From the NCBI GenBank assembly GCA_027618255.1, contig JAQCFG010000001.1, positions 1,225 to 65,224 on the forward strand: a stretch of 64,000 nucleotides of DNA, written 5' to 3'. A program made the position numbers and the translations under genes. The DNA is from Cyanobacteriota bacterium (lineage in GTDB: Bacteria > Cyanobacteriota > Vampirovibrionia > LMEP-6097). The notes beneath the pieces were generated by a model. It had not been told where the DNA came from. It saw only the letters and a program-made list of their open reading frames with translations, and did no database searches. Within the stretch, counting starts at the first letter, position 1. Each line of letters opens with the position of its first letter. This document shows, in pieces, positions 3,785 to 21,749 of the stretch.

Positions 3785-3872
3785 TCAAGAACATCGGGGA
3801 AATAAACCCAAAGACAATTAAAAAATGGCTTTGAATAACAATAACCCGGTCTAGATAAGCTACAATATCTAA

Positions 3873-8412: not shown

Positions 8413-9753
8413 ATGTCCGTTGTCAGGATACGACCCTGTTGCCTCTCAGAATTGAGAATAAGACCAGCTCCAGAAAATTCTTCTGGAGCTGGTTCAGCGC
8501 AATGCCCAACTCAGCATTTGGAAGCAAGGGGGCGCTTATCAATAGCTCGAAATCAAACACAAGAACAAAATCACAATTTAGATAGACCGAATCAATTTTT
8601 AACACCAGAAGAATTCAAACGGAAATTTAACACCTCGCTTGAGAATGTGCTTCTAGCTCCCAGAGCTAGGATGGAAAAAGGTGATACTGGGGCTTGTCGT
8701 ATTAACATTTCAGAAGAGTCATGGATTTTAAAAATTAGCGATAGGAAAGAAAAAGCAATAAATGAGCTTTTGATACGTAATGTTATCAATGAATTCTTCC
8801 CAAATCTACTCAGCACAACAGAAGCCTATGCTGTTGGTGCGGATGACCATACTTTATGCCTTAATCGATTTAGCCCAGCATCTAATAATCAGGAACTTTT
8901 TAACGACCTGAAGATGCAAGATAGAATTGAAATCTCAATACTTGCTCTTGTATTTGGTGTTAAAGATTTCAATTCTGGTAACATCTTATTTAAAGATGAT
9001 CAAACACCTGTATTGATAGACTTTGAAACCACTCATCATAGTCCAGAAAATTACAAAATTTATAAAAGAGGGAGGGAACTATTGCGTGAGAAATATCCAT
9101 ATATTTTAAGTGAAATGGATCCGACTAAATTAGATCAATATAAAGCTAAACAACGAGAATGGTTAAAAATAGTTAATGACGATAGTTTTAGAGCAAGGCT
9201 TTTTGAAATAGTGAAAATTTCAGGTGGGGATGAAACTATGGCAAAAATTTATTATGAGACTATCAAAAGAAATTTAAGTAATTATGAAAGAACATTACAA
9301 CTCTTAACAGAAATGAAAAGCTTAGGTATTCCTAAGACTGAATTAAATTCTTTGGGCTGGAAAGGTGGAATAAATAGTTTGAATTTTGACGAAAATACTA
9401 GTATCTTTGATACTGGAAAGAAACTTGAACTTAAAGAGGGTGAGCAATTGCTTCTAGAATTTGCTTCAGATGGAGTATTACTCATTGAATATGATGGACA
9501 ATCCTTTAAATTTCTATACAGGGATAATCATAGACAAGTGGAGAAAACTAGACAGGTAGGATGTGAATTTAAAATTGGTACGAGTGCTGATTCTAATGAT
9601 GTCATTATTTGTTTAAAAGATGAGGCGGGAGAAAAATGTCCTTGTGACTTAAATATAAGCCTAGCCGCAAATGGGAGAATCACTTTTAAACATCGACAGC
9701 CAGAACAAACAAATAATGTGAGGTTAATAGGTGTCTTTGCTAATAATCTGTAG
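8413..9753 (+). CDS. Protein-kinase-like fold protein (APH/ChoK/PI3K-like catalytic motifs); the start is uncertain and is probably near 8671
   Basis: Motifs WILKISDRKEKAINELL, KDFNSGNILF (catalytic-loop-like D-x-N-x-G-N-I-L) and VLIDFE (DFG-like). The first 87 codons contain a perfect 12-bp hairpin and no Met until codon 87. Confidence 0.4.
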   Translation: MSVVRIRPCCLSELRIRPAPENSSGAGSAQCPTQHLEARGRLSIARNQTQEQNHNLDRPNQFLTPEEFKRKFNTSLENVLLAPRARMEKGDTGACRINISEESWILKISDRKEKAINELLIRNVINEFFPNLLSTTEAYAVGADDHTLCLNRFSPASNNQELFNDLKMQDRIEISILALVFGVKDFNSGNILFKDDQTPVLIDFETTHHSPENYKIYKRGRELLREKYPYILSEMDPTKLDQYKAKQREWLKIVNDDSFRARLFEIVKISGGDETMAKIYYETIKRNLSNYERTLQLLTEMKSLGIPKTELNSLGWKGGINSLNFDENTSIFDTGKKLELKEGEQLLLEFASDGVLLIEYDGQSFKFLYRDNHRQVEKTRQVGCEFKIGTSADSNDVIICLKDEAGEKCPCDLNISLAANGRITFKHRQPEQTNNVRLIGVFANNL

Positions 9754-9808
9754 AGAAACTGAAGAATAATTCTGGCCATTTTACAAATAATTTCTTATAA
9801 TTATCAAT

Positions 9809-10144
9809 ATGAAATACTTCCTATACTGCCGTAAGTCCACTGACTCAGAGGATAGGCAAATGCTTTCTATTGAAGCCCAGCTTCAAGAACTTCGAGACTA
9901 TGCTCGTAAAGAGAAGCTTGATGTAATCAAAGAATTCACTGAATCCAAAACAGCAAAGAAACCTGGTAGAGAAATTTTCAATGAAATGATCTCAGAGATT
10001 GAAGCTGGTAAGGCTGATGGCATAGTAGCTTGGAATCCAGACAGATTAGCTCGCAACTCAGTCGATGGTGGAAGAATAATTTATCTTATTGATGAAGCTG
10101 TAATAAAAGATCTCAAATTTCTGGTTCTTGCTCTGAGATTTTAG
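9809..10144 (+). pseudogene. 5' fragment (N-terminal ~105 codons) of a large serine recombinase gene
   Basis: Its product aligns residue for residue with the first 105 aa of the intact recombinase at 15540..17171 (about 85% nt identity, including the promoter region from ~9770). Similarity ends near 10123, then 6 unrelated codons and a stop follow. Confidence 0.7.
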
Positions 10145-10298
10145 CTACTGCATCATAGCCAAGTTTTTCGATTGCACCTTTTAGTTTTCTTGAATTTGCT
10201 CCAAGGGCTTCGTATCCACTTAAAACTACTGATTTTGCTAAATTTCCTACGCTGATATTACTGTTGCTCATGTTTATATAACTATATTGTACTTGCAA
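10113..10298 (-). CDS. Small hypothetical protein
   Basis: 61-aa ORF immediately downstream of, and on the same strand as, the 366-aa gene; there is no other support. Confidence 0.25.
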   Translation of the reverse strand: MQVQYSYINMSNSNISVGNLAKSVVLSGYEALGANSRKLKGAIEKLGYDAVAKISEQEPEI

Positions 10299-10307
10299 TT
10301 TTGATAG

Positions 10308-11408
10308 TTATTTTGAATTACTCTCTTGAATTTGAGCAAAAAGTTCGCCAAGATCGACAATTTTTTTACCTTCAAATTTTTTCTGAAAGTACTCATCTGC
10401 ATCTTCAGTATTTGCAATAAAGCAACCTTGTTCTTGGATTAATCTTTCTAATTCTTCTACACTTTGCTTTTTAATTGACGATCCAATTTGTGCAGCAAGC
10501 CTGTGACTGTTTGCTAAAACTTTTGCTTGTGTTTGGCTTGAATTAAATCCTGATTCTCCAGAGTGGGCTACCGCTTCTGCTTCTAGGTCTGAATCAATAT
10601 AGCCATCGAGTAGTCTTGCAAGTTCAGTGTTATATAGTCTATGTAAAGTTCCTTGAACTCTATCTTTTCTAGCACCTTTACGAAAATCATTTCTTAAAGC
10701 TTTCCAGAGCATTACTTTTTCTTTTCTAGTAGCTTTATCTTTAAAATCTTGATAACTTTTATAACCAAACTTTTTAGCTTTAGATTCAGCTAGAGTTTTC
10801 AACTCGAAACTTTCCCTTAAAATCCCTTTCTTTTCCATGTAAGTAAGTGCCTTATGGTAGTCACGAAAAGTCTGAATTCGTTCTGGACTTAAACTAGGTC
10901 TTCTGTGTTTCAGTAAGGCAAGTTGTTCTAATGTTTTTGGATAGCTGACACCAATATCTTGCGCATTACCTGATGCTGCTGCCTCAAAATATTGTTGAGT
11001 ATGTTTGAGCTCATGTTTTAGTATCGTTTTGATTTTGTCTAAGCTTAACTTACCTCTTGTTTTGATACTGTTTATTTCAACAATAATTGAATTTGTTTCT
11101 GGTGAATAAGCTGCACTAAATTCTTGCTCAGATTTTTTTGAATTGATAATATATACGTCAGGTTTAAACTCTTTTGGAATTCCGAGTTCTTGTGCTTCTT
11201 TATCTATGACTTTGGCTAAAAAATTTTGTAACCTTTGTGTTTCTTTATCTCTAGAATTACTTAAGCTCATCAATGAAATTTCTGCTCTAGTTTTTAAAGG
11301 TCTTAATTTTCTTTTCAGTCGTTTTGGAAATTCTTCAAGCTGTTTATCCAGCCCTAGCCGAGAGGCAAACCCCATACTTGTGCAAGCTAATTGTTGAATT
11401 CTACTCAT
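10308..11408 (-). CDS. Hypothetical Lys-rich protein with an HExxH motif
   Basis: 366-aa ORF containing LKHELKHTQQ, a possible zinc-metallopeptidase motif; no other recognisable domain. Confidence 0.4.
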   Translation of the reverse strand: MSRIQQLACTSMGFASRLGLDKQLEEFPKRLKRKLRPLKTRAEISLMSLSNSRDKETQRLQNFLAKVIDKEAQELGIPKEFKPDVYIINSKKSEQEFSAAYSPETNSIIVEINSIKTRGKLSLDKIKTILKHELKHTQQYFEAAASGNAQDIGVSYPKTLEQLALLKHRRPSLSPERIQTFRDYHKALTYMEKKGILRESFELKTLAESKAKKFGYKSYQDFKDKATRKEKVMLWKALRNDFRKGARKDRVQGTLHRLYNTELARLLDGYIDSDLEAEAVAHSGESGFNSSQTQAKVLANSHRLAAQIGSSIKKQSVEELERLIQEQGCFIANTEDADEYFQKKFEGKKIVDLGELFAQIQESNSK

Positions 11409-11733
11409 GACCTTTCTATATAAAGATAAGTTATTGAAATTATTGATATTTTTAGGTGTTTTTGCTTATGACTTTTTGTAGCTACTAGCGCGCCACTTCG
11501 TGGCTTGCATCCTTTTGATTTTTTAGCTCCGTTTCATCTGTCTGCTTTACTAACGGCTACAGCAGCCATGATGAAACGAAGCCAAAAAATACAGTGTTAG
11601 CTAATGGGACAGCAGAGAGGGTGTTAAGAAAGACCGCTCTTCTGTCTGCTCGCGTCTCAGCCTCGAGCAAGCGAGCAGCCCAAAGGGCTGCGAGCGTTCC
11701 CAGTTAGGCTTGGCTGGGCTTGAGGTGGGTAAA

Positions 11734-11928
11734 TGGCGCGTCCGGAAGGATTTGAACCTTCGACCATGGTCAAGCCAAATACAATTACCAGTTTACTCAA
11801 TAGACCTAAATCGGCTAAAGCCGAAGTGAATTTTTAATATGTGATTTGCTTTGCAAATCACTGGTTTTGAGAGCACTTCTAGGCTTTTAACCGATTGATC
11901 GAGGGCTAGATCTTGCGAACACTCCTCT
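11734..11928. repeat. Island-end repeat unit A (tRNA 3'-end-like ~30 nt, a spacer with hairpin gtgatttgctttgcaaatcac, and a degenerate tRNA-Lys-like anticodon arm in the opposite orientation)
   Basis: Near-identical to unit B and about 80% identical to unit C. It starts with tggcgcgtccggaaggatttgaaccttcgacc, the reverse complement of a tRNA T-arm, acceptor 3' strand and CCA. Confidence 0.7.
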
Positions 11929-11968
11929 AAAAAACAAAAAGAACCCTAAAGGGCTCTTTTTGTTTTTT
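11929..11968. terminator. Bidirectional intrinsic terminator palindrome (A-run, 17-bp stem, T-run)
   Basis: aaaaacaaaaagaaccc-taaa-gggctctttttgttttt; it has the same architecture as the palindrome at 17363..17402. Confidence 0.6.
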
Positions 11969-11972
11969 AATT

Positions 11973-12160
11973 GTGCGTCCGGAAGGATTTGAACCTTCGA
12001 CCATGGTCAAGCCAAATGCAATTACCAGTTTACTCAATAGACAATAGTGGCTTGACCAAAATCGGCTAAAGCCGAAGTGAATTTTTAATATGTGATTTGC
12101 TTTGCAAATCACTGGTTTGAGAGCACTTCTTAGCTTTTAACTAATTGATCGAAATTCAGA
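11973..12160. repeat. Island-end repeat unit B
   Basis: Second tandem copy of unit A; it contains cttagcttttaactaattg, a degenerate tRNA-Lys anticodon stem-loop. Confidence 0.7.
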
Positions 12161-12176
12161 TTCTACTGGCTACTCC

Positions 12177-12355
12177 ACATCCCCGCAGCCAACTGGCATT
12201 CCGAGCCCCTTATCGGTTGCCCGCTTCCAGGGATTCTTGTGTTCTCAGCTTCCCCACTAGTGTATTTTGCTCTAGGAATTTTTTGAGAGCATAGCTCTGG
12301 CTGCTGTGTAACAGGAATACAGGCAGAGATATGCTCGATAAAAAATTCCATGGCA
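12177..12355 (-). pseudogene. Inverted copy of the last ~176 bp of the serine recombinase gene (left arm of an inverted repeat)
   Basis: It is the reverse complement of 16975..17150 with only a few mismatches. The spurious ORF 12163..12351 encodes SGQPIRGSECQLAAGM, identical to the recombinase C-terminus. Confidence 0.75.
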
Positions 12356-12592
12356 AAGCAAGGAGGAGCAGAGCGACGACGCGCTAGTTTCTGTCAGCGA
12401 GGGCTTTAGCTTAGCCTGTCCAGAGGAGCGTAGCGACGTAGGGAAAGCAATCTCCCAACTTAAGCTACTAACAGCCCTAAAGTGCCACTTCAGACTTTAT
12501 AGCACAACCTTATTTCAGCACGTGGAGCAAGACGCAAGGTGGCTTGCGGAACCCAGTTGAGACAAGTGAAACGCAGGCTCAACTGGAAAAAA

Positions 12593-14935
12593 TCAAGAAG
12601 TAACTTTTTCTTTTAACTGATTCAGTTTTTGTTCTTTCTGTTCTTTAATTTGTTGATTATTAGGGTCATCAAAAGAGACAAAATTTGAACACAAGGCATT
12701 ATAATGCTCTTTATCTTTCAGCTCCAAACACTCAACAATATTTTTTATAATTTGGCTACATTCGTTTATGTCAGAATGTTTGATAAAACTTTCACTAGAT
12801 CCACTATGAGAATAATTATGTACAAACTTTTCTATTCGAGTTGCCTGTATTTTTTCATCAATTAAAAAATGTAACTTTGAAGACCAAGATTTTGAATCTG
12901 GGCATTTCATTCCCAAATATGCCTCCAAAAACTTTCTAATAATATTCCCCAATATATAATGTTGTTCAAACTCCGCGGAAGGATTTTTATAAAATTTATG
13001 AATTAAATAAAAAAGATAAATATATTCCGACTTAAATTTCTTAAGCTGCCAAGGTAGCTTTTTGATTGAAGATGAATTTTTATACTTATTGTGTGTCCTT
13101 TCAATAAAGTAAAACGGTGCTTCATCAAGTTTATTGTTGTTTTGCAACTTAAGTTTTTCTTTGATAAAATCCTTAACCAAATTAAAGAATTCTAGATTAT
13201 GAGTAGAAATAAAAAGTTGTTTGCATTGATTATCTCCCAACCTTTCCCTAATAAAAGAGTACACATTATACAAATGGTTACTATCAAGACTAGAAATTGG
13301 GTCATCAATAAAAACAACAGTTTCAGAAAGATTTGTATTTTTATCTTCTAGGCTAGCAATAAAATAAGCAAAGGATATTGCTGTCTTCTCACCTTCACTT
13401 AAATTTTTGGCCGGCTTGTTGTCTCTTAATAATTTAAAAAGGCCTTTTTCATTAGTTTCAAATACCAAGTTGTCACTATTAAATAGGATTTGCAAATATT
13501 CATTTACTTTCTTAGCCCCATTTGCATTTTCAGAAAGCCTATTCTCTAAACTCACAATTTCAGACTTTAATTCACATATCAGAGTTTTCTTTTCAGATAT
13601 TAACTTCTCTTGTTCTTTTATAAGCTCTTGATTATCTATATAGTTCGTATCATTAATAAATTCATGTGCAAAGTGTTGTATTAATTTCTCTTTCAATAAT
13701 TCTCTCTCTGAATTAAAGTTATTTGTTTTTGCATTGTGCTTATCAATCACTTGATTGATTTTTTCTACAATATTCCTAATCACCTCTACTTCAGTTTTCT
13801 CAAAATCTCTTAAATCCCTAGGTGTCAATTCCTCAAAAGGATTTTCACTTTTTTGCACTAGGCAGGCCTTTAAGTTTTCAAGATATTCAGTAGAAACAGC
13901 AAGTTCATTTTTTAATATACCTTTCAAATTTTCATATTCTAATTGGAAATCATCATAGAATCTTGCTTTATCAATTAACCTTACATCTATCTCGTTAATC
14001 ACTTTAATTTTTTGATCTATCTGGTCTTTTAGTAGGTTTATTTCAGTACGTAATTTGCTCAGATCATCTGAAAAATGTTTTTCTAGCTTCCCGATTAAAT
14101 CAGCGGGTAATTTATTACCACAAAATTTACAATTATCACTATCTTTATGTAAATCCTTACCATGTTCAACCCATCTATTAAGTTCGGTATTTTCCAATAA
14201 CTTCTCTATGGTTTCTGCAATTGGTTTTTTCACCAAAAGTTCTTCTGTTCTTTGGTAAAGATTTTCACTATCAATTTTCAGCAGTATTAAAAATGATATA
14301 CCTTCTTTGACATTTGTATCTTGATAAGAGCGTATCGCTCTTTGTAGAGCATCATCTGTAAGTATTTTGTTCTCATCATTTTTTAGTACAGCACTTTCAA
14401 CATAAGGAATAAATCTATTTTTATCAAAGTTAACAATTGACAAAAGGTTCTTTATATTACTGGCTCTTTCAGAAAGAGATTTTATTAAATTCTGTTGGAG
14501 TAATCCTGTCTCTCCAGCTAAATTAACTAAACTTTCATTCTCTACCTTCAGTTCGTTAGCTTTAGAGCTTAACCGTTCTTGAAGCTCAATATTTTGTTCA
14601 CCAAGAATAAAGATAGGTTGAATCTCATCATCTTGCTGATGCCATTTTAAATTTCTATCTATAAAATCGATATTAAAAACCCTTATATCAATTACCTGAG
14701 TTAGGTCTGAACTTGATTTCAGTCCTTTTTCAGTTTCAAAAACAAACTCTGCATTAGGGTAGTCCTCATGCCTCTCTTGTCTCTCAAAACATTGAAAGAT
14801 ACGGGATAAAGAAGTTTTTCCAGTGTAATTCCAGCCATATATAAGATTATATTTTTCAAAATTTGGCAGCGATTCACTCCAAGTGAAATCCTCAAAGACT
14901 GCAAATTTCTTTATTGTATCTATCTTCACTATCAC
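12593..14935 (-). CDS. AAA_13-family ABC-type ATPase with a coiled-coil CxxC zinc hook and a C-terminal PrrC/RloC-like anticodon nuclease region (RloC-like)
   Basis: The N-terminus KKFAVFEDFTW...NLIYGWNYTGKTSLSRIF carries the AAA_13 Walker A. Also present are a DSDNCKFCGNKL zinc hook in the coiled coil, LSEGEK, VVFIDDPISSLD, FISTHNLEFF, and a C-terminal GNIIRKFLEAY motif (R-x3-E) followed by His residues about 35 aa later. Confidence 0.6.
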   Translation of the reverse strand: MIVKIDTIKKFAVFEDFTWSESLPNFEKYNLIYGWNYTGKTSLSRIFQCFERQERHEDYPNAEFVFETEKGLKSSSDLTQVIDIRVFNIDFIDRNLKWHQQDDEIQPIFILGEQNIELQERLSSKANELKVENESLVNLAGETGLLQQNLIKSLSERASNIKNLLSIVNFDKNRFIPYVESAVLKNDENKILTDDALQRAIRSYQDTNVKEGISFLILLKIDSENLYQRTEELLVKKPIAETIEKLLENTELNRWVEHGKDLHKDSDNCKFCGNKLPADLIGKLEKHFSDDLSKLRTEINLLKDQIDQKIKVINEIDVRLIDKARFYDDFQLEYENLKGILKNELAVSTEYLENLKACLVQKSENPFEELTPRDLRDFEKTEVEVIRNIVEKINQVIDKHNAKTNNFNSERELLKEKLIQHFAHEFINDTNYIDNQELIKEQEKLISEKKTLICELKSEIVSLENRLSENANGAKKVNEYLQILFNSDNLVFETNEKGLFKLLRDNKPAKNLSEGEKTAISFAYFIASLEDKNTNLSETVVFIDDPISSLDSNHLYNVYSFIRERLGDNQCKQLFISTHNLEFFNLVKDFIKEKLKLQNNNKLDEAPFYFIERTHNKYKNSSSIKKLPWQLKKFKSEYIYLFYLIHKFYKNPSAEFEQHYILGNIIRKFLEAYLGMKCPDSKSWSSKLHFLIDEKIQATRIEKFVHNYSHSGSSESFIKHSDINECSQIIKNIVECLELKDKEHYNALCSNFVSFDDPNNQQIKEQKEQKLNQLKEKVTS

Positions 14936-15068
14936 TATCAGGCATCCATTCTATCAAGTAAGTCTCTAATTACTTTTAAACTATATATTTGAGTGAAAAC
15001 CCTCAGTGGTCTTATTTTAATATCAAAAAACCTCAACTGCTAGACTTATATAGTCTAGAGGAAATTTT

Positions 15069-15485
15069 ATGTCTGGTATCACAAATTTAGGTCACATAGT
15101 AACAGATAGAGCTAACGTAGCGCAGGATATTCAAACTAGAGACAAAGTCCGTGAGTTTGGCGATATTGTTGCTGGTGTTTTATCAGGAGCTAATGACGGT
15201 GAACCAAAAGCAAGCTCCCCTGAAGACCAAGCTGCTGCTACAAGATATGCAGCAAATGTTGCAGGAGCACATTTGCTAATGGGAACAGGCAATGTCACAC
15301 CAAAACAAGCTAATCAGTTAAAAAATGACGCTGACTTTGCAAGAAGAGCTGCTGGAGGCGATGAAGTTATTTTAGAGGATGTTATCAAAGTTGCTGAACA
15401 AGTTGCCAATAATGGAGATCCAGAAGTTGGTGGGACTATGATTCTATCGGTTGCAGAGCATCTAGGTAAAATTGCACAATCTTAG
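15069..15485 (+). CDS. Hypothetical Ala/Gly-rich protein, divergent from the RloC-like gene
   Basis: 138-aa ORF with a low-complexity N-terminus MSGITNLGHIV, similar in style to other uncharacterised proteins in this window. Confidence 0.35.
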   Translation: MSGITNLGHIVTDRANVAQDIQTRDKVREFGDIVAGVLSGANDGEPKASSPEDQAAATRYAANVAGAHLLMGTGNVTPKQANQLKNDADFARRAAGGDEVILEDVIKVAEQVANNGDPEVGGTMILSVAEHLGKIAQS

Positions 15486-15539
15486 GAACAAGCAAATTTT
15501 ACTGGCCATTTCTTTTTTAGTTTTGTATAATCCATAATA

Positions 15540-17171
15540 ATGGATAAATATTTTATTTACTGTAGGAAATCCTCCGACTCAGAGGATAGACAAATGCTTT
15601 CTATTGAAGCTCAATTACAAGAACTCAGAGACTATGCTCGTAAAGAAAAGCTTGAAATAGTTAGAGAGTTCACCGAGTCTAAAACAGCGAAGAAACCTGG
15701 CAGAGAGATCTTTAATGAAATGATCTCAGAGATTGAAGCTGGTAAGGCTGATGGGATAGTAGCCTGGAATCCAGATCGCTTAGCAAGGAACTCTGTTGAT
15801 GGTGGAAGAATAATTTATCTTATTGATGAAGCTGTAATAAAGGATCTTAAGTTTCCGACTGCTTGGTTTGATAATTCACCTCAAGGCAAATTCAATCTCT
15901 CTATAGCTTTTGGGCAAGCAAAATTTTATGTCGATAATCTTAGACAGAACGTTCATCGTGGCATACGCCAGAAACTACGCAAAGGACAGTATTGCAATAA
16001 AGCTCCTCTTGGATATATTAATCACCCTAAAACTAGAACTATAGAACCTGATCCTGTTGAGTTTGACTTGATGAGAAAAACTTTTGATCTATTCCTTACT
16101 GGAAACTGTTCACAGACTGAGATTCGACAAGCAATGTTTGAAATGGGAATTAAGAATCAAACTGGTGATAGAATCCACAGAGATAAAGTAAAAAAGACTC
16201 TTCAGAATCCATTTTATTATGGCTACTCCTATCACAAAGGAGAACTCTACGAAGCCTCTCACCAGCCTATGATAACAAAAGCTGAGCATGAAGAAGTACA
16301 AAGAATCCTAAAACTCAAATCTAAGAACAAATACAAAACTACTAAGAAGGATAAGAAGAAAAGAGATTTCTTTTTCTTAGGTTTTGAGAAGTGCGGTGAG
16401 TGTGGCTGTAGTTTTACAGCAGAAAGACATGAAAAGAAAAAATATAACGCAGTCTGGAAATATTACAGATGCTCTAAGAAAAAGAAAGACATGGATTGCG
16501 ATCAACCTTACCTCAAAGAAGAAATACTTTCTGGGCAAGTAAAAGATACTGTCTCAAGGATAGCCTTAAGTGATGACTGGAGCGAGCTTGCGCTTAAGAC
16601 TCTAGACTCCTGGGCAGACACAGAGCGACAGTCATCACTTAAAACAGCCAAGAACCTTGAGTCAGATCTAAAAATCATCAGAGAAAAGCTTGAAAGGCTA
16701 CTAGATCTTCATTTGGATGGTGTTTTATCATCTGGTGAATACAAAAGCAAAAAAAATGCTCTAATAAGCTCCAAGCTAAAACTTGAAACTCAGCTCTCTC
16801 AAATCAAACAAGACGGTGTAGTTTGGCTCGAACCAAGCAAGACACTTATAAAAGAAGCTAATAGAGCCAAGAAATTAGTTGAAGAAGAAAATTATCACGA
16901 AATGCGCTCTTTACTTCAAAAAGCAGGCTCGAACCAATTAATACGAGATAGAAAGTTCAGCATGAACTACCTTGAGCCATGGAATTTTCTTATCGAGCTA
17001 AACTCTTCATTCCTGTTACACAGCAGCCAGAGCTATGCTCTCACTGAATTACCTTCAGAAAATGCGCTAGTGGGGTGGGCGGGAATAAAAAAATCCCCGC
17101 GCAGCGGGCAACCGATAAGGGGCTCGGAATGCCAGTTGGCTGCGGGGATGTCAGAATGGTGCGTCCGCTAG
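15540..17171 (+). CDS. Large serine recombinase (resolvase/invertase catalytic domain, recombinase domain and zinc ribbon)
   Basis: The N-terminus YCRKSSDSEDRQMLSIEAQ carries the catalytic Ser context; CGECGCS...YYRCS is the zinc ribbon; there is a C-terminal coiled coil. The stop codon lies inside repeat unit C. Confidence 0.8.
   Translation: MDKYFIYCRKSSDSEDRQMLSIEAQLQELRDYARKEKLEIVREFTESKTAKKPGREIFNEMISEIEAGKADGIVAWNPDRLARNSVDGGRIIYLIDEAVIKDLKFPTAWFDNSPQGKFNLSIAFGQAKFYVDNLRQNVHRGIRQKLRKGQYCNKAPLGYINHPKTRTIEPDPVEFDLMRKTFDLFLTGNCSQTEIRQAMFEMGIKNQTGDRIHRDKVKKTLQNPFYYGYSYHKGELYEASHQPMITKAEHEEVQRILKLKSKNKYKTTKKDKKKRDFFFLGFEKCGECGCSFTAERHEKKKYNAVWKYYRCSKKKKDMDCDQPYLKEEILSGQVKDTVSRIALSDDWSELALKTLDSWADTERQSSLKTAKNLESDLKIIREKLERLLDLHLDGVLSSGEYKSKKNALISSKLKLETQLSQIKQDGVVWLEPSKTLIKEANRAKKLVEEENYHEMRSLLQKAGSNQLIRDRKFSMNYLEPWNFLIELNSSFLLHSSQSYALTELPSENALVGWAGIKKSPRSGQPIRGSECQLAAGMSEWCVR
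16975..17150. repeat. Right arm of the ~176-bp inverted repeat (the recombinase 3' end)
   Basis: Reverse complement of 12177..12355. Confidence 0.75.
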
Positions 17172-17359
17172 GATTTGAACCTAGGACAATGGTCAAGCCA
17201 AATGCGATTACCAGTCAACCCAATGTCCTTAGGGCTTGACCAAAATCGGCTAAAGCCGAAGTGATTTTTTTATGTAATTTGCTTTGCAAATTACTGGTCT
17301 GAGAGCACTTCTTGGCTTTTAACCGATTGGTCCCGGGTTCAGGTTCTAGTGGAAGTACC
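17156..17359. repeat. Island-end repeat unit C (31 nt identical to the tRNA-Lys 3' end, a spacer with hairpin, and a pseudo tRNA-Lys 3' half in plus orientation)
   Basis: tggtgcgtccgctaggatttgaacctaggac matches 17405..17435. Downstream, gagagcacttcttggcttttaaccgattggtcc mimics the D-arm and anticodon arm of tRNA-Lys(UUU). Confidence 0.7.
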
Positions 17360-17362
17360 TTA

Positions 17363-17402
17363 AAAATCAAAAATCACCCACAAGGGGTGATTTTTGATTT
17401 TT
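17363..17402. terminator. Perfect 18-bp palindromic intrinsic terminator (A-run, stem, T-run) abutting the tRNA-Lys 3' end
   Basis: aaaaatcaaaaatcaccc-acaa-gggtgatttttgattttt. Confidence 0.65.
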
Positions 17403-17404
17403 AA

Positions 17405-17481
17405 TGGTGCGTCCGCTAGGATTTGAACCTAGGACCAATCGGTTAAAAGCCGAGTGCTCTACCGGGCTGAGCTACGGACGC
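17405..17481 (-). tRNA. tRNA-Lys (anticodon UUU) with encoded CCA
   Basis: Reverse complement GCGTCCGTAGCTCAGCCCGGTAGAGCACTCGGCTTTTAACCGATTGGTCCTAGGTTCAAATCCTAGCGGACGCACCA folds by hand into a cloverleaf with a 7-bp acceptor stem, anticodon loop CTTTTAA and T-loop TTCAAAT. Confidence 0.85.
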
Positions 17482-17600
17482 GTATTTAATACGCGCAGAC
17501 GCAAATAGTGTCCTTCTGGTCGTTCAGGACACTAGGCTCAAATATATCATGTGATTTTTGTATGTTTCTGAAGACTTTCTGAATTTTAGCCAGAACTGGT

Positions 17601-18923
17601 CTAGTAAACTAAGGGCAAATCAGTCCACTTAGAGGTAAAACACGGCGACCGATGCCCCTGCTTGGCGTTCCAGCCTGGTTTCTGCTCTTTATTAGAGCGC
17701 TTAGCGCCACTCGCTGCCCAAAACACCGTATTGAGCCCCAATGATAAATTCAGACCATCAACCAAATTAGACAGCTCTTGTTTTTGTCCCGTATTACTAA
17801 CTTGAGCATCCCAAATTGCCAGCTGCCGATCATCCTTATTAGCAAAATTGCTCAGAACCACTCCTGCCTTTCTATAAGAAAGCCCCTCTTCAAAAATATC
17901 ATCCAATATTACAAAAGCAGCTCGAATCAAATCAGGAGTATAAGAAGTTGGCTCCGCAAAATTATAATCAGCGGCAAGCTCTCGACCTCTGTAATGAGAT
18001 GCATCATCTGCCCGTAAAAAAATCTGCAAGGATTTCAATTCTTGATTTTGCACTCGAAGCTTCATCGCGGCACTAGCAACAAAACTGGCAACAGCCTCTC
18101 GCAGTTCTGGTAAAGTCTTGACTTTCGCACCAAATGATCTTGAACAAATGATGGATTTGTTTTGACTAGTGATTGCAGTTGCATCCAAGTCCAAACAAAC
18201 TTTGCCAGCAAGCTCCAAGACAGTGCGCATCGCATTGATACTAGCAACTTGCTTGAGCCAATCTCTATCAACATATTTCAAATCAAGAGCCGTCTTAATC
18301 CCTCTCTGGCTGAGGGTTCTCTGATAACCGCGACCAACTCCCCAAACATCAGCGAGCTCAACTTCTGACAAACAAAAATCAATTTGTGCTTCAGCCAAAG
18401 CCAAATCACTTTGATCAAAATACAAACTATAAACTCCAGTTCCATTTTCTTTGGCTATCTTGTTAGCGACCTTGGCAAGAGTCTTGTTTAGAGCAATGCC
18501 AATTGAAACAGGAATACCGGTGCAGCGTTCTACTTTGTTTTGAATTTGTTTGGCGCGAGTAATTAATTTACTTGGGCTATCCTTGGTCGTGTCCCCGAGT
18601 AAAACAAAGGCTTCATCGATTGAATATATTTCTTTGTGCTCCACTTCTTGGGCAAGTACCGACATCACTCGAGTTGACATATCACTATAAAGAGCAAAAT
18701 TGGAAGAGCGCTTATGTACTTGGTGTTTCCTGAAAATATACTCCAGCTTGAAAACCGGTTCACCCATTGCAATACCAAGGGCTTTTGCTTCCCGGGAGCG
18801 AGCAATTACACAACCATCATTATTTGATAAAACCACCACTGGTTTATTTTTCAAGCTCGGGTCAAAGACCCTCTCGCAAGAAACAAAAAAACTATTGCAA
18901 TCTAATAAAGCAAAAACCTTCAC
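17601..18923 (-). CDS. umuC: Y-family translesion DNA polymerase UmuC
   Basis: The N-terminus [20 protein letters not shown]...[23 protein letters not shown] and the SIDEAF catalytic motif are near-canonical for UmuC. Confidence 0.8.
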
Positions 18924-19249
18924 TCATAACCTCGTATCGAATGCAAGACCACTCCCCACAGCTCTTCTTGCTGACCGGCTTTGCAGTCAGAGAAACGCAT
19001 TAACAATAATTCAGTATCGCCATTAACAACAATCAAACTTGATGCCTTTGGAGTAATTGATCTATCGACAATTAGAAGATCACCATCATTAATACCCAAG
19101 TCTTGATGTCTTTGACCACTCATACGCATCACAAAACTAGCAGAAGGGTGACGTAAAAGATAACGATTAAAATCCAAAGCAAAATCGAATTGCTCCGCTT
19201 GTTCAAATGAGCCCATCTGCTCTGAATTCATAAATCGTAGTCCTGCCAT
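18920..19249 (-). CDS. umuD: UmuD-like protein (S24 LexA-like fold) of UmuD' length that apparently lacks the Ser/Lys dyad
   Basis: [36 protein letters not shown]...GVVLHSIR aligns with E. coli Umu[37 protein letters not shown]...GVVIHVVK. The gene overlaps umuC by 4 nt. Confidence 0.6.
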
Positions 19250-19438
19250 AGGACAATTATACTTACTTTCGTAAGGAGCGACGCTAAATATACTGTTTTA
19301 CCTCTTGACTATGACTTGCGTCAATATGCAAGATCGAATTAGAGCCCAAAAGCCCTGGTTTCACTAATCATTAAAATAAATCCCCAGGGGCTCAATGACC
19401 CCTTTCGATTTAGAGTCGCTTTTGCAATAATCAAAACC

Positions 19439-19675
19439 ATGGTCGAACAAATCAAGAAATTCAATTTCATAAAACCAAACGATAAGCAAAAAACCTATGC
19501 CGCAATAATATTTGCTGTGACTGGTGGTACTCTGATGTACACCGCCTGGCAATTCATTGTTCCAACGGAGTTAGACATGCCACCAATTAATCCTTTCGCA
19601 CTAGTATTCTTGGTACTCATAAGTTTAATTTTCATAAGAGTAGGTTATAATGTTTACTCAAAGGAGAGGAAATAA
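19439..19675 (+). CDS. Small hypothetical membrane protein
   Basis: 78-aa ORF with two hydrophobic helices; weak support. Confidence 0.3.
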   Translation: MVEQIKKFNFIKPNDKQKTYAAIIFAVTGGTLMYTAWQFIVPTELDMPPINPFALVFLVLISLIFIRVGYNVYSKERK

Positions 19676-19972
19676 ATGGACCCAGTCTGGTGGATTATTA
19701 TTTCAGTCATGCCAATACTAATTTTTGGACTCTTGGTAATACAAGCAGATAGACAAGCTCCTGAAGAAGCTTCAGAGCAACAACCCTAAATCTATAAAGG
19801 AGAGGGGAATGATTTTAAAAACTAATAAGGAGAGTATCCTGAGTAGCAAAGCTCAGGGTACGAGCAAAAACGCACATCCCGGCTATTGTAAGAGCTCAGG
19901 GCTTAGATATACCCTTTCGACAAAAGATGGCGGTAGGAGCTCAGGGGCTATATATACCCTTGCAGATGAAAA

Positions 19973-20047
<75 letters not shown>

Positions 20048-20069
20048 ACGGAGCAAGCTCATCAACAAA

Positions 20070-21749
20070 ATGAGTTTCTCTAAGAATACTACAACAACTT
20101 TAGTATCGGTGCTAGTATTGATGATTTTTTCATTTTTAAACCCTCTTCTTGCTAATACCAATTACCAAAGTAAGCTAGTTTTAAGCAAAAATACCAGTAT
20201 TGACCAAATTCGCTTCTTTAGGGATAGCTATATTTATAGCAATTATGGTCAGCTTTATTTTAAAGATTCTGCCATCAAACTACTCAACTCTAATGAGCAG
20301 GGCATAGTGATCAATGACATTTTTATCGACAACAATGATTTCTATCTAGCTACTGACATGGGGATCTTTCATAATTACCGCAGGATTTTTAGCAAAGAAC
20401 CTTGCCAGCAAATTATCAAAACACCTTCGCAAATATTTATCGCTTGCCAGCAAGGAATCTATAACGCCAAAATCGAAAAGAAAACTCTTCAGACTCATTT
20501 TGACTGGCAGCTCGATGAACTCAGTCCGCAAAATCCCAACTTCATTAGTCTCAATAAATCCAAAACCAAAGTCAAATACGCAAGCGCTACTAATGGATTC
20601 TTTTATCACGAGCGAAGCACTAGTTCCGTTAGTAAAGAGGGAATAGATTTGCGCAAGAAATCTAATCAGTGGATTAATAGAAGTTATGGACTCAAACGAG
20701 ACTTTCAAGACTCATTTGGTTTTGGTCGATTCCTAGAGCATGAAGCCAAATTATACCTAGCAACAAGCTCTGGCATTTTCACGAGTGCTAATCAAGGAGA
20801 ATCATGGGTAAAACACAACACTGGGCTCAAAGCCAATGCTGATGGCTTCTTTAGCATTAGGCAAATCAATCTTTACAATGGTCAGCTATTAGCTTTAACT
20901 AGTCAGGGTTTGTATCAATCACTTATACAAGAAGAACTTGACTGGCACCAAATCACAATTGCAAATACAAAAAAATCCTCAAACTATCAAAGTGATTTTT
21001 TGTCACTAGATATTCTTGATTCCACGATAATTCTTAGTAACTCACAAGGACAAGTTTTTAATTTGTCACCAGATACAAGTTATACAGCTTCAATCCACAA
21101 AGAAGAAAATCTACAACAAAATACCATAGAAGCAATAATCAAAGCAGAACCGAAGATCCAAGACTTACATAATATTGCATTAGAATTTGCTGGTATCCCC
21201 ACAGGCAAAAATTTTCGCACTTACAAAAGACAGGCTCGTCTAAGAAATCTCGTACCCGATTTTGAAGCATTTGCTGAGCATGACAGCCAAGACATTCTTT
21301 CAATTGAGACAGATGCTGGAGATAGCTTCACCTCAAATACAAGTAGCATCAACACTGATTTTGGCAAAACCAATCTTGATCGCGATGACGATAAAATCAA
21401 TACCGGAATCAAGTTTAAATGGAACCTGAGTAACTTAATTTATGACCCAGAAATCAATGACATTAATACTAGTGCAAGAATCACCGCCAATATCAGAGAG
21501 AACATTCTGACTGAACTTACCCAGATTTATTACAATCGCAAAGAACTTATTTATAGATTACTCAAACAAAGCCTCAATGAAACGACAGATGGTAATTACA
21601 AAGACAAACTACGTCTTGAAGAATACACTGCTCAACTTGACGCCCGTACCGGAGCTTGGTTTAGTCAAGAGCTTGAAAAAACTATCCAGAGCATAGTCGA
21701 GAATCTCGATCCAGAGAATCGAGCTCGAATACTCGCTCTTTACACATAG
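20070..21749 (+). CDS. Secreted hypothetical protein (Ser/Asn-rich)
   Basis: The ORF track start at 19809 overlaps tRNA-Gln. The first in-frame ATG after the tRNA is at 20070 and gives MSFSKNTTTTLVSVLVLMIFSFLNPLLA, which looks like a signal peptide. Confidence 0.5.
   Translation: MSFSKNTTTTLVSVLVLMIFSFLNPLLANTNYQSKLVLSKNTSIDQIRFFRDSYIYSNYGQLYFKDSAIKLLNSNEQGIVINDIFIDNNDFYLATDMGIFHNYRRIFSKEPCQQIIKTPSQIFIACQQGIYNAKIEKKTLQTHFDWQLDELSPQNPNFISLNKSKTKVKYASATNGFFYHERSTSSVSKEGIDLRKKSNQWINRSYGLKRDFQDSFGFGRFLEHEAKLYLATSSGIFTSANQGESWVKHNTGLKANADGFFSIRQINLYNGQLLALTSQGLYQSLIQEELDWHQITIANTKKSSNYQSDFLSLDILDSTIILSNSQGQVFNLSPDTSYTASIHKEENLQQNTIEAIIKAEPKIQDLHNIALEFAGIPTGKNFRTYKRQARLRNLVPDFEAFAEHDSQDILSIETDAGDSFTSNTSSINTDFGKTNLDRDDDKINTGIKFKWNLSNLIYDPEINDINTSARITANIRENILTELTQIYYNRKELIYRLLKQSLNETTDGNYKDKLRLEEYTAQLDARTGAWFSQELEKTIQSIVENLDPENRARILALYT

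What the first reader, a model, noticed from the sequence alone, without database searches (positions are those of the whole stretch)
12177..17150. A ~176-bp inverted repeat made from the 3' end of the recombinase gene brackets a 4.6-kb segment
The segment 12177..12355 is the near-exact reverse complement of 16975..17150, which covers the last ~55 codons of the intact serine recombinase. Each arm directly abuts one of the tRNA-derived repeat units: unit B on the left and unit C on the right. The 4.6-kb segment between them carries the RloC-like gene, the 138-aa gene and the recombinase.

There are two readings. One is a serine-invertase-style invertible segment. The other is the terminal remnant of a second element copy inserted in opposite orientation, whose body was lost. 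Either way it is unusual that the recombinase's own C-terminal coding sequence forms the repeat. The recombinase C-terminal tail (…SGQPIRGSECQLAAGMSEWCVR) is therefore encoded by repeat DNA. The repeat arms are also markedly GC-richer than their surroundings.
Basis: seen in the sequence. Interest (0 to 1): 0.65.

Follow-up and report, generated by a model that had tools for sequence, protein, structure and literature searches.

The report
Recombinase island's built-in inverted attachment arm
The inverted repeat is real but diverged, and it is a built-in, conserved feature of a widespread family of tRNA-targeting serine-recombinase islands whose attachment site lies inside the recombinase's own gene, not the wreck of a second element.

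Summary
The repeat exists at the stated place (12177-12354 vs 17151-16976). It is 84% identical with 8 gap positions, not near-exact. Two blocks stand out: 32 bp at 100% and the outer 56 bp at 95%.

It is not an accident. In 47 of 50 testable loci encoding homologous large serine recombinases, the last 70-210 bp of the gene recur inverted upstream of it. In 55 of 64 loci the ORF runs into a convergent tRNA gene.

Three-way junctions in relatives show a canonical attL and attR, plus an internal inverted copy of the attP region. So attP lies inside the recombinase's 3' end. One element was found both integrated (L014) and as a circular or tandem form with a complete gene (L093).

In the window, four islands sit in tandem at tRNA-Lys, bounded by 33-35-bp core repeats. 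The left arm is orthologous to that of the closest relative (89%, against 76% between arms). It is better conserved than the gene and folds into a ~30-bp hairpin that the coding arm lacks.

The "remnant" reading is rejected. Inversion is plausible for the family but unproven here. Function is inferred: a second recombinase site acting as flip partner or regulator.

The parts
9787..10121 (+). 5' fragment (upstream 25 bp plus first ~103 codons) of another recombinase copy; relic of an older island (E0) in the tandem array
   Evidence: 85.5% identical, ungapped, to 15546-15855. The 111-aa ORF hits Pfam Resolvase at 9.4e-18. 83% identical to L002 5781-6114.
11484..11731 (.). GC-rich non-coding region 'X' that abuts the first core copy; role open
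   Evidence: 75% identical to L002 8981-9214, where it lies inverted next to a tRNA-3'-end-like inverted pair. No ORF and no detectable similarity to the arms.
11732..11968 (.). Unit A, a recombinase-less mini-island: core copy (11732-11766), ~100-nt spacer, decayed plus-strand tRNA-Lys-like piece, hairpin
   Evidence: Direct-repeat families D1, D3, D5. 78% identical to unit C plus the start of the tRNA. Junction alignment.
11969..12176 (.). Unit B, the left end of island E1: core copy (11969-12003, attL-like) and spacer. 12118-12176 is a decayed inverted copy of tRNA-Lys (anticodon arm to 3' end) that abuts the left arm
   Evidence: 84% identical to unit C. The alignment of the left-arm outer flank with the antisense tRNA-Lys runs through the anticodon arm.
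12177..12354 (-). Left arm: internal inverted copy of the recombinase-proximal att arm (P arm). Contains the outer 56-bp block (12177-12232), the 32-bp block (12284-12315) and a ~30-bp-stem hairpin (about 12276-12348)
   Evidence: Orthologous to L002 4538-4660 at 88.9%. Hairpin dG -31.6 kcal/mol, z -5.4, conserved in L002 and L005 with compensatory changes. The recombinase frame stays open for only 47 codons (read).
12355..12592 (.). GC-rich non-coding stretch inside the bracketed segment, partly conserved with L002
   Evidence: 12228-12390 matches L002 4538-4695 (84%). 12547-12599 matches L002 4761-4813 (81%). The plus-strand fold of 12177-12600 has z = -4.07.
12593..14935 (-).
   Evidence: Pfam AAA_13 at 7.4e-138. 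PDC-S06 at 1e-163 and PrrC at 1.9e-12.
15069..15485 (+). 138-aa ORF of unknown function directly upstream of the recombinase
   Evidence: ORF list. No Pfam, PADLOC or NCBIfam hit.
15540..17171 (+). Large serine recombinase (543 aa), the integrase of island E1. The family-conserved core ends near codon 482 (EPWNFL)
   Evidence: Pfam Resolvase, Recombinase and Zn_ribbon_recom. Sub-threshold NCBIfam similarity to XisF and CcrA/B/C. 31-sequence alignment.
16976..17151 (+). Right arm: 3' end of the recombinase ORF, equal to the P arm of the att site. Runs into the core copy at 17155
   Evidence: Its middle part (VGWAGIKKSP...QPI.GSE) looks similar at protein level to L005's tail on comparing the translations; not formally aligned.
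17155..17402 (.). Unit C, a recombinase-less mini-island between E1 and the tRNA: core copy 17155-17187 (100% identical to the tRNA 3' end), spacer, decayed plus-strand tRNA-Lys-like piece 17300-17360, perfect 20-bp hairpin 17360-17404
   Evidence: (D1-D5, I3, I9).
17405..17481 (-). tRNA-Lys(UUU), the integration target. Its 3'-terminal 33 nt are the core repeated at 17155, 11969 and 11732
   Evidence: ARAGORN. Rfam tRNA at 70.9 bits. 33/33 identity of 17155-17187 with 17403-17435.

Best explanation
The two arms are the two copies of the recombinase-proximal attachment arm (the 'P arm') of a genomic island that integrates into the 3' end of a tRNA gene using a large serine recombinase. In this recombinase family the phage-type site attP lies inside the 3' end of the recombinase ORF. 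After integration the ORF therefore runs across the junction into the antisense of the tRNA, or, in a tandem array as here, into the tRNA-like core of the next island.

Every member also carries a second, inverted copy of that arm plus core, placed at the other side of the recombinase-bearing segment. That copy is the window's left arm. In this lineage it is joined to a decayed inverted tRNA-Lys copy.

The window holds a tandem array at tRNA-Lys(UUU): a decayed island (E0), unit A, island E1 (unit B + left arm + defence gene + 138-aa ORF + recombinase + right arm), unit C, then the tRNA. Each is bounded by a 33-35-bp copy of the tRNA 3' end.

Inferred function. The inverted copy is a second recombinase-recognised site. 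Ancestrally it served as partner for flipping the recombinase segment, probably by homologous recombination between the arms, since serine integrases are not known to pair such sites. Alternatively it served as a second attP.

In the candidate-phyla relatives, flipping or excision re-attaches the gene to a conserved 20-codon tail that integration cuts off. That would make a built-in on/off device for a self-splitting integrase.

In the window's lineage the left copy no longer encodes a usable tail. It has evolved independently of the right arm for a long time and has been remodelled into a long hairpin plus a conserved 56-bp block. Here it most likely acts in cis, by recombinase binding or regulation, perhaps with rare inversion, and not as a frequently flipping switch.

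Sub-confidences: structural identity about 0.85; flip-partner or regulatory function about 0.35.
For: **Shown**
1. The repeat is real.
2. Family rule.
- 55/64 homologous loci have a convergent tRNA gene at the end of the ORF, covering 12 tRNA types.
- ORF tails translate antisense tRNA, 'WWT.DSNPRP'.
- 47/50 testable loci have the ORF's last 70-210 bp inverted upstream, mostly 93-100% identical. This includes three genome-derived loci L005, L008 and L009.
3. Three-way junctions. An example is L054: B-TGGCTCCG-tail / linker-TGGCTCCG-tail (inverted) / linker-TGGCTCCG-tRNA-Asn. Thirteen loci have a far-left direct tail copy.
4. The flank of the inverted copy encodes a peptide conserved at protein level, WWC[LI]L..[IV]RT.F[EQ].NP, with Arg coded as CGA or AGA. 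It is the real C-terminus of 15/120 database homologues.
5. The same element (99.8% over 5,990 bp) occurs integrated at tRNA-Ala with a truncated ORF (L014), and as a circular or tandem form with the full ORF and a 448-bp perfect inverted repeat (L093).
6. The GAAC motif lies 5 bp further from the core on the tail side than on the tRNA side in 15/25 loci by first-match. Reading the listed sequences, 5 more show it at a second GAAC. This is the attP/attB hallmark of serine integrases (PMC3783163).
7. L090 has the recombinase joined by its 3' end to the copy next to the conserved HTH gene. That is the opposite orientation to L014 and L066 and, by BLAST of the conserved upstream region, several other loci. 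Its arms are only 83% identical, so this is not an assembly artefact.
8. In the window:
- Core repeats bound the islands.
- Left arms are orthologous (88.9%), against 76% left-right.
- Only the left arms fold into a long hairpin: z -5.4, -8.1 and -5.5, against -0.9, +0.1 and -1.6 for the right arms.

**Inferred:** that the arms recombine, and what the left copy does.
Against: - No read-level or population data were available, so no inversion was observed for this element or for any single element.
- The window, L002 and L005 all have the same orientation.
- The window's arms show no concerted evolution, and their longest perfect match is 32 bp, which is poor substrate for homologous inversion.
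- Published rules say serine integrases do not recombine pairings other than attP x attB and attL x attR (PMC3783163).
- In the window, L002 and L005 the left copy is not a usable coding 'spare end': the frame stops after 47 codons in the window and 14 in L005.
- L090's orientation could equally come from integration through the second site, without in-situ flipping.
- Tail-bearing database proteins can be explained by circular or tandem forms alone.
Confidence: 0.55

Rival explanations
1. The left copy never takes part in DNA rearrangement. It is a cis-regulatory element. It could be an operator or decoy that binds the recombinase near its own segment for autoregulation. It could also act as an RNA or DNA hairpin, for example an RNase III target or a transcript-stabilising structure for the cargo or recombinase transcripts.
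For: - The left-arm-specific long hairpin has compensatory changes.
- The left arm is more conserved than the coding arm.
- The plus-strand fold of 12177-12600 has z = -4.07.
- The outer 56-bp block is conserved in both arms, as expected of a protein-binding site.
- The same orientation is seen in the window, L002 and L005.
- Integrases are not expected to recombine such site pairs.
Against: - In most relatives the copy is a perfect 90-450-bp duplicate that includes a protein-coding tail. That is far more than an operator needs.
- L090 shows the opposite orientation of the recombinase segment.
- There is no terminator-like U-run after the hairpin (read), and no Rfam family matches.
Confidence: 0.17
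2. This is a currently active invertible segment in this genome. The recombinase flips 12355-16975 at high frequency as a phase-variation switch affecting the defence gene and/or the recombinase's own C-terminus.
For: - Inverted sites bracket a segment that encodes a serine recombinase.
- The outer 56 bp are 95% and the 32-bp block 100% identical despite 76% elsewhere.
- If flipped, the ORF would stay open 47 codons into the left arm, because the indels -1 and +4 restore the frame.
Against: - The enzyme is a 543-aa integrase type, not a Hin/Gin-type invertase.
- The arms have diverged independently since before the split from L002.
- The defence gene's upstream region (14936-15068) lies inside the bracketed segment, so if its promoter is there, flipping would not switch the gene.
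- The orientation is identical in three relatives.
Confidence: 0.12
3. The left arm is the terminal remnant of a second element copy that had integrated in the opposite orientation into a plus-strand tRNA-Lys copy and then lost its body.
For: - The left arm abuts a decayed plus-strand tRNA-Lys-like sequence, with the same geometry as the right arm and the tRNA core.
- The locus does contain other decayed pieces, such as the 5' recombinase fragment at 9787-10121.
- The arms are diverged (84%).
Against: - The same arrangement recurs in 47/50 family loci, which independent deletions cannot explain.
- It is inherited: the left arm plus inner flank are collinear in L002, with different cargo.
- The left arm is under purifying selection and has a derived hairpin.
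- The 5' fragment is on the wrong strand and too far away to be the same copy.
Confidence: 0.05
4. The arms are terminal inverted repeats of an IS- or transposon-like cassette (recombinase with or without cargo) that moves on its own between tRNA-like sites.
For: - Many relatives look like a 1.8-kb unit made of the recombinase flanked by ~100-150-bp perfect inverted repeats.
- In units A and C a hairpin occupies exactly the place taken by the arm-bounded segment in unit B.
Against: - Island ends are direct core repeats with attL/attR composition, and cargo commonly lies outside the arms.
- The integrated and circular/tandem forms of one element differ at the core, not at both arm ends.
- The hairpins of units A and C share no sequence with the arm ends.
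Confidence: 0.04

Closest known systems
Dehalococcoides ssrA-specific genomic islands with the serine integrase DsiB (McMurdie et al. 2011, PMC3146451)
   Same: - A ~540-aa CcrB-like large serine recombinase sits at the island edge.
- Its ORF always overlaps the att site and reads into the tRNA-like gene or its direct repeat.
- Tandem arrays of islands are bounded by direct repeats of the gene's 3' end.
- The authors already suggested the gene may be complete only on the circle or next to another island.
   Different: No inverted copy of the recombinase 3' end is described there ('inverted' occurs 0 times in the text). The target is tmRNA rather than tRNAs. Sequence relationship to DsiB was not tested here.
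SSV-type 'suicidal' integrases of archaeal viruses and plasmids (review PMC8371274)
   Same: The att site lies inside the integrase's own gene, so integration into a tRNA gene splits the gene. The complete gene exists only on the free element.
   Different: Those are tyrosine recombinases, stated to be exclusive to Archaea, and the gene is split deeply. Here the enzyme is a bacterial serine recombinase, only the last ~20 codons are removed, and the element carries an inverted spare copy of the att region.
Tycheposons and other tRNA-targeting islands forming tandem arrays (Hackl et al., bioRxiv 10.1101/2020.12.28.424599)
   Same: Site-specific integration at tRNA genes, partial tRNA repeats, degenerate elements accumulating in tandem, and defence or niche cargo. 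A minority use a large serine recombinase.
   Different: No inverted att-arm duplicate and no recombinase ORF crossing the att site is reported in the passages read.
Hin/Gin/Cin/Pin invertible segments, which switch protein C-termini (from general knowledge)
   Same: Inverted recombination sites lie inside coding sequence, so that inversion swaps the C-terminal part of a protein.
   Different: Those use small ~190-aa serine invertases with 26-bp sites and a Fis enhancer. The invertase gene lies outside the switched gene, and the switched proteins are tail fibres or flagellins, not the recombinase itself.
Yeast 2-micron plasmid layout (from general knowledge)
   Same: In the free form (L093) there are two unique segments separated by two long perfect inverted repeats that contain the recombinase's target.
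   Different: Flp is a tyrosine recombinase acting on FRT for copy-number amplification. Nothing here shows replication or amplification.

Membership tests
Large serine recombinase (serine integrase) | N-terminal resolvase catalytic domain followed by a recombinase domain and a zinc-ribbon domain; about 450-700 aa | tested here: met
   Pfam PF00239 (9.4e-22), PF07508 (1.8e-11) and PF13408 (5.3e-11) in the 543-aa ORF.
Large serine recombinase (serine integrase) | attP and attB half-sites share a motif displaced by 5 bp | tested here: met
   In relatives, GAAC lies at offset 14 on the tRNA side and 19 on the tail side in 15/25 loci by first-match. On my reading of the listed sequences, 5 more show it at a second GAAC. 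The rule is from PMC3783163. It is not assessable in the window itself, where the core is 33 bp.
Site-specifically integrated genomic island at a tRNA gene | Island bounded by the intact tRNA gene and a direct repeat of its 3' end | tested here: met
   17155-17187 equals 17403-17435 (33/33). The copies at 11969-12003 and 11732-11766 are ~86% identical, with compensatory T-stem changes.
Site-specifically integrated genomic island at a tRNA gene | The same element is seen both integrated and excised or at another junction | tested here: inconclusive
   Met for a relative: L014 integrated versus L093 circular or tandem, 99.8% identical. Not available for the window's own element.
Self-splitting ('suicidal', SSV-type) integrase | The att site lies within the integrase ORF, so integration changes the gene | tested here: met
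   The ORF crosses the junction in the window and in 55/64 relatives. Full-length versus truncated ORF of one element is seen in L093 versus L014.
Self-splitting ('suicidal', SSV-type) integrase | Tyrosine recombinase fold; archaeal host | tested here: not met
   The domains are those of a serine recombinase. The source is labelled a bacterial MAG.
Hin/Gin-type invertible segment | Small (~190 aa) serine invertase with a C-terminal HTH; short (~26 bp) inverted sites | tested here: not met
   The recombinase is 543 aa with an integrase architecture. The arms are ~176 bp.
Hin/Gin-type invertible segment | Both orientations of the segment occur in one population | not testable with these tools
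   No read data. Across the family both orientations relative to the HTH module occur (L090 versus L014/L066). Within the window's lineage only one is seen.
Insertion sequence or transposon with terminal inverted repeats | Inverted repeats form the outermost ends of the mobile unit | tested here: not met
   The mobile unit's ends are the core direct repeats. Cargo and a direct tail copy lie outside the arms in 13 relatives. In the window unit B lies outside the left arm but inside the island.
DsiB-type ssrA/tRNA islands (Dehalococcoides) | Serine integrase ORF overlapping att; tandem islands separated by direct repeats of the target's 3' end | tested here: met
   The description is in PMC3146451.
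DsiB-type ssrA/tRNA islands (Dehalococcoides) | Sequence homology to DsiB and a companion small serine recombinase DsiA | not tested
   No DsiB sequence was compared. No second recombinase ORF is evident between the arms.

The most novel reading that the evidence does not exclude
A large, mostly candidate-phyla family of bacterial serine integrases is 'self-splitting': attP lies inside the gene, which a review describes as exclusive to Archaea. Each element carries an inverted spare copy of the att region. Recombination between the two arms flips the integrase segment and rebuilds, or again truncates, the full-length gene. This would be a heritable, reversible on/off switch for island mobility, with a 2-micron-like flip-flop layout in the free circle. 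The window's element would be an old derivative in which the spare copy was converted into a structured cis-element.
Probability: 0.3. Interest if true: 0.8.

Novelty: new variant of a known kind. Interest (0 to 1): 0.62.

Why it matters
Serine integrases are prized genome-engineering tools, and what controls their direction is an active question.

This family has four notable properties:
- It places attP inside the integrase gene. A review calls this exclusive to Archaea; in bacteria it has been hinted at only for DsiB.
- It targets the 3' end of at least 13 different tRNA species.
- It always keeps a second, inverted att region.
- It ferries defence cargo (R-M systems, a PrrC/RloC-like ATPase) through genomes of candidate-phyla bacteria and of a cyanobacteria-labelled MAG.

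If the arms do recombine, this is a natural, self-contained switch that turns an integrase on and off by rebuilding its gene.

There are practical consequences too:
- The inverted arms exceed common assembler k-mer sizes and probably break many metagenome contigs at these loci.
- The recombinase ORFs in databases carry meaningless antisense-tRNA tails.

Tried and rejected
- **Exact-protein look-up.** Including the stop codon found nothing. The 100% match appeared in the homologue search instead.
- **Viral contigs.** The 25-nt core of the 32-bp block had no match.
- **Rfam.** At E <= 1, 9000-21000 gave only the two tRNAs plus chance hits. There was nothing for the arms, the units or region X.
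- **Direct copies of the tRNA 3' end.** A search within 1.5 kb upstream in typical relatives found none. This was later explained: their core is only 6-8 bp and attL lies further away.
- **Region X as a third arm.** I proposed that X (11484-11740) is a third, P-type arm of the decayed island. There is no ORF and no detectable similarity to any arm, so the idea rests on position only and is left open.
- **IS-like cassette idea.** The idea that the arms are termini of an IS-like cassette was abandoned once the three-way junctions and cargo positions were seen.
- **Same element in both orientations.** A search found none. L090, L092 and L022 have no near-identical partner among the fetched loci.
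- **Short contigs as evidence of inversion.** The many ~1.8-kb contigs that break at the arms were rejected as evidence of inversion. An inverted repeat longer than the assembler's k breaks the graph anyway.
- **Literature.** Searches found no description of the inverted att-arm copy.
Full report
**1. The observation**

BLASTN of the window against itself pairs 12177-12354 with 17151-16976. The match is 84.0% identical over 181 columns with 8 gap positions, E = 1.5e-46. MAFFT gives the same picture. The repeat is contiguous and far beyond chance, but it is not near-exact.

Identity is concentrated in two blocks:
- The outer 56 bp are 95% identical (I2).
- A 32-bp block at 12284-12315 / 17012-17043 is identical; shuffles expect 0 matches.

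The remainder is 60-78% identical with indels of -1, +4 and -1.

The right arm is the end of a 543-aa ORF (15540-17171) with Resolvase, Recombinase and Zn_ribbon_recom domains. The bracketed segment also holds two other ORFs:
- A 780-aa AAA_13 protein that matches the PADLOC candidate defence family PDC-S06 (1e-163) and, C-terminally, PrrC (1.9e-12).
- A 138-aa ORF with no family match.

The arms are GC-richer than the island body.

**2. Local anatomy**

tRNA-Lys(UUU) lies at 17405-17481 on the minus strand. Its 3'-terminal 33 nt recur as direct copies:
- at 17155-17187 (33/33);
- at 11969-12003 and 11732-11766, about 86% identical, with compensatory changes in the T-stem.

Each copy starts a ~240-bp 'unit'. 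A unit consists of the core, a ~100-nt spacer, and a decayed plus-strand tRNA-Lys-like piece that keeps the anticodon loop. In units A and C a perfect hairpin follows.

In unit B the hairpin's place is taken by the whole arm-bounded segment. The left arm abuts the decayed plus-strand tRNA-Lys copy in the same geometry in which the right arm abuts the core of unit C.

A 5' fragment of another recombinase copy lies at 9787-10121 (85.5% to the intact gene).

The locus therefore reads as a tandem array at tRNA-Lys:

E0 (decayed) | unit A | E1 (unit B + left arm + cargo + recombinase + right arm) | unit C | tRNA

**3. Closest relatives**

The exact protein is labelled a cyanobacterial MAG protein (P0001).

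*L002-L004 (P0002, 78% aa identity).* These loci also carry an inverted copy of the recombinase 3' end upstream. It is collinear with the window's left arm and inner flank: window 12228-12390 matches L002 4538-4695 at 84%. The cargo between arm and recombinase is different (a PhzF-family gene), and an ISL3 element is inserted in the right arm.

*Four-arm comparison.*

| Pair | Identity |
|---|---|
| left-left (window vs L002) | 88.9% |
| right-right (window vs L002) | 80.7% |
| left-right, window | 76.0% |
| left-right, L002 | 75.5% |

The duplication therefore predates the split of the two lineages, and the arms have not been homogenised since. The non-coding left arm is better conserved than the coding arm, and better than the gene as a whole (77% nt).

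*Hairpin in the left arms only.*

| Locus | Left arm dG (kcal/mol) | Left arm z | Right arm z |
|---|---|---|---|
| window | -31.6 | -5.4 | -0.9 |
| L002 | -36.6 | -8.1 | +0.1 |
| L005 | -33.7 | -5.5 | -1.6 |

The left arms fold into a ~27-30-bp-stem hairpin; the homologous right arms do not. The distal stem differs between the window/L002 and L005 (52% aa relative) while pairing is kept.

*Coding capacity.* The left arms are not usable coding copies. In the recombinase frame the window's stops after 47 codons and L005's after 14.

**4. Family-wide survey**

I collected genome-derived loci for three ~50%-identical homologues (L005, L008, L009) and 80 metagenome loci at 41-51% aa identity.

- *tRNA adjacency.* Of 64 loci with at least 150 bp downstream, 55 have a convergent tRNA gene overlapping or abutting the end of the ORF. 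Twelve tRNA types are represented.
- *Tails.* The protein alignment shows the conserved core ending at 'KKPWNYL' (window EPWNFL). The tails are antisense-tRNA translations, WWT.DSNPRP.
- *Inverted copy.* Of 50 loci with enough upstream sequence, 47 have the last ~70-210 bp of the ORF repeated in inverted orientation upstream. The copy is usually 50-150 bp before the start codon and mostly 93-100% identical. In cargo-bearing cases it lies up to ~6 kb away (L008, L063).
- *Extent.* The repeat extends 3-8 nt into the tRNA 3' end.

**5. What lies beyond the inverted copy**

Reading outward from the upstream copy, the flank is not host DNA. In frame with the copied recombinase end, it encodes a peptide conserved with synonymous and conservative codon changes. 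The pattern is WW-C-[LI]-L-x-x-[IV]-R-T-x-F-[EQ]-x-N-P, with Arg as CGA or AGA.

The same peptide is the real C-terminus of 15 of the 120 best database homologues.

In 13 loci a further copy of this tail lies kilobases upstream in direct orientation, preceded by unrelated sequence. Aligning the three junctions gives the classical pattern. For L054:

| Position | Composition | Type |
|---|---|---|
| far left | B-TGGCTCCG-tail | attL |
| middle, inverted | linker-TGGCTCCG-tail | intact attP-type copy |
| right | linker-TGGCTCCG-tRNA-Asn | attR |

A GAAC motif sits 5 bp further from the core on the tail side than on the tRNA side in 15/25 loci by first-match. On my reading of the listed sequences, 5 more show it at a second GAAC. 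This is the published difference between attP and attB half-sites of serine integrases (PMC3783163).

**6. One element in two states**

L014 and L093 are 99.8% identical over 5,990 bp.

- In L014 the ORF runs into tRNA-Ala and ends in antisense-tRNA residues.
- In L093 the ORF ends in the conserved tail (P0091) and is followed by the far end of the cargo (KAP NTPase, DpnII-type R-M, XRE regulator).
- The L093 contig wraps with a period of 8,026 bp. There the inverted repeat is 448 bp and perfect, covering linker, core, tail and a ~260-bp structured module.

L093 is therefore the circular or tandem form. So attP lies inside the recombinase ORF, integration removes the last ~20 codons, and the element permanently carries a second, inverted copy of the att region.

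**7. Orientation states**

In L014 and L066 a small XRE-HTH gene adjoins the internal copy, and the recombinase starts next to that copy. BLAST of the conserved region upstream points to the same arrangement in L053, L022, L032, L054 and L030.

In L090 the recombinase is joined by its 3' end to the HTH-adjacent copy, which is the opposite orientation. Its two arms are only 83% identical, so an assembly artefact is unlikely.

The family therefore contains both orientations of the recombinase segment. This does not show whether the difference arose by in-situ flipping or by integration through the second site. No single element was found in both orientations.

**8. Interpretation for the window**

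The right arm is the P arm of island E1's att site running into a core copy. The left arm is the family-typical internal inverted copy of that arm. Here it is joined to a decayed inverted tRNA-Lys copy, so it is attR-like rather than attP-like. L009, L062 and L084 are comparable: a full plus-strand tRNA lies upstream of the recombinase.

Unlike most relatives, the cargo sits between the internal copy and the recombinase. This is also the case in L002, L005, L008 and L063.

The structural identification is well supported (about 0.85).

The function is inferred. A pair of inverted recombinase-site-bearing arms around the recombinase segment is the substrate for inversion. In the candidate-phyla members, inversion would swap the truncated ORF end for the conserved tail. 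Serine integrases are not expected to pair such sites. Homologous recombination between the 90-450-bp perfect arms is therefore the likelier driver there.

In the window's lineage several facts point to a mainly cis-acting role, such as recombinase binding, regulation or a structured RNA/DNA element, with inversion at most rare:
- the arms diverged long ago;
- the left copy cannot supply a tail;
- the left copy has been remodelled into a hairpin;
- the 56-bp block is still kept in both arms.

**9. Rivals**

| Rival | Confidence | Main objection |
|---|---|---|
| Purely regulatory or structural left copy | 0.17 | hard to separate from the main explanation with these tools |
| Currently active phase-variable inversion in this genome | 0.12 | divergent arms; same orientation in three relatives |
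| Remnant of a second, opposite element | 0.05 | family recurrence, orthology, selection, derived hairpin |
| IS-like cassette with terminal inverted repeats | 0.04 | island ends are direct core repeats |

**10. Comparison with the known**

- *Closest description.* The Dehalococcoides ssrA islands, whose serine integrase DsiB always overlaps att at its 3' end. The authors speculated that the gene is complete only on the circle or beside another island (PMC3146451). No inverted copy is mentioned there.
- *Same principle.* The archaeal SSV-type 'suicidal' tyrosine integrases, with att inside their own gene, described as exclusive to Archaea (PMC8371274).
- *Shared with tycheposons.* The tRNA-anchored tandem arrays.
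- *Analogies only.* Hin/Gin systems and the 2-micron plasmid.

I found no paper describing the inverted att-arm copy. The searchable library is incomplete, so this is absence of evidence.

**11. Verdict**

The finding is a real, old and diverged instance of a conserved architecture. I rate it a new variant of a known kind, serine-integrase islands at tRNA genes. The twist, apparently undescribed, is that attP lies inside the integrase gene and is duplicated in inverted orientation.

Interest is 0.62. It is driven by the family-level architecture and the testable switch hypothesis, and tempered because no rearrangement was observed and the window's own copy looks largely fixed.

Noticed in passing
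window 11863-11930, 12113-12180, 17295-17365: Units A, B and C each keep a plus-strand tRNA-Lys-like piece. Its anticodon stem-loop (loop CTTTTAA, anticodon UUU) is the best-preserved part, while the T-arm part has decayed. The island's cargo is a PrrC/RloC-like ATPase, and PrrC's classical substrate is the tRNA-Lys anticodon loop (from general knowledge). A decoy or substrate-mimic role is pure speculation.
   Followed up: partly
window 11924-11968 and 17360-17404: The hairpins that end units A and C are perfect ~20-bp stems flanked by A and T runs, like bidirectional terminators. The stem sequences differ between the two units while pairing is kept. They occupy exactly the position where unit B carries the arm-bounded 4.97-kb segment.
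   Followed up: partly
window 11484-11740; L002 8981-9214: GC-rich non-coding region X is conserved (75%) between the window and L002. It lies next to a tRNA-3'-end-like core in direct orientation in the window and in inverted orientation in L002. It has no ORF, no Rfam hit and no similarity to the arms.
   Followed up: partly
window 9787-10121 and 10308-11408: A 5' fragment of a second recombinase copy, including 25 bp of upstream sequence, is followed by an opposite-strand 366-aa ORF with no family match apart from a weak ZorA/MotA-like hit (1e-4). It looks like an older island whose recombinase was overwritten.
   Followed up: partly
window 12547-12599; L002 2826-2874 and 4729-4813: A ~50-nt hairpin motif (CCAGTTGAGACAAGTGAAACGCAGGCTCAACTGG in the window) recurs once in the window and twice in L002. 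It may be a small dispersed repeat.
   Followed up: no
L002 7343-~8656: An ISL3-family insertion sequence is inserted in the right arm of the closest relative's recombinase. It replaces the C-terminal residues after ...LVGWAG.
   Followed up: partly
L005 7378-8250 and 8226-8433: A 52%-identical relative at tRNA-His has four tandem ~208-229-bp units, each starting with 20-22 nt of the tRNA-His 3' end and ending in a hairpin. A 205-bp module bounded by a perfect 21-bp inverted pair follows. This parallels the window's units A-C.
   Followed up: partly
L093 (whole contig, 12,034 bp): The contig wraps around itself (54-4008 equals 8080-12034, 100% identical, period 8,026 bp) and ends 55 nt inside the inverted repeat. 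This fits a circular element or a tandem dimer. It carries a DpnII-type R-M system, a KAP NTPase and an XRE regulator.
   Followed up: partly
loci L012, L024, L028, L035, L039, L046, L071, L075, L080, L083, L091, L092, L097, L098: Many public contigs for this family are only ~1.75-2.0 kb and break at or inside the arms. Inverted repeats near or above assembler k-mer length probably fragment these loci systematically. Database ORFs also carry antisense-tRNA tails.
   Followed up: partly
window 19385-19408, 19888-19976 (next to tRNA-Gln 19973-20047): A ~44-nt motif (GCTCAGGG...ATATACCCTT...) occurs in tandem just before tRNA-Gln and once more ~500 bp upstream. A 646-aa ORF (19809-21749) with no Pfam hit nominally overlaps the tRNA on the other strand, so its real start is probably downstream.
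   Followed up: no
window 17601-19249: Y-family polymerase (UmuC-like, IMS domains) and a Peptidase_S24 (UmuD/LexA-like) ORF lie immediately on the other side of tRNA-Lys.
   Followed up: no
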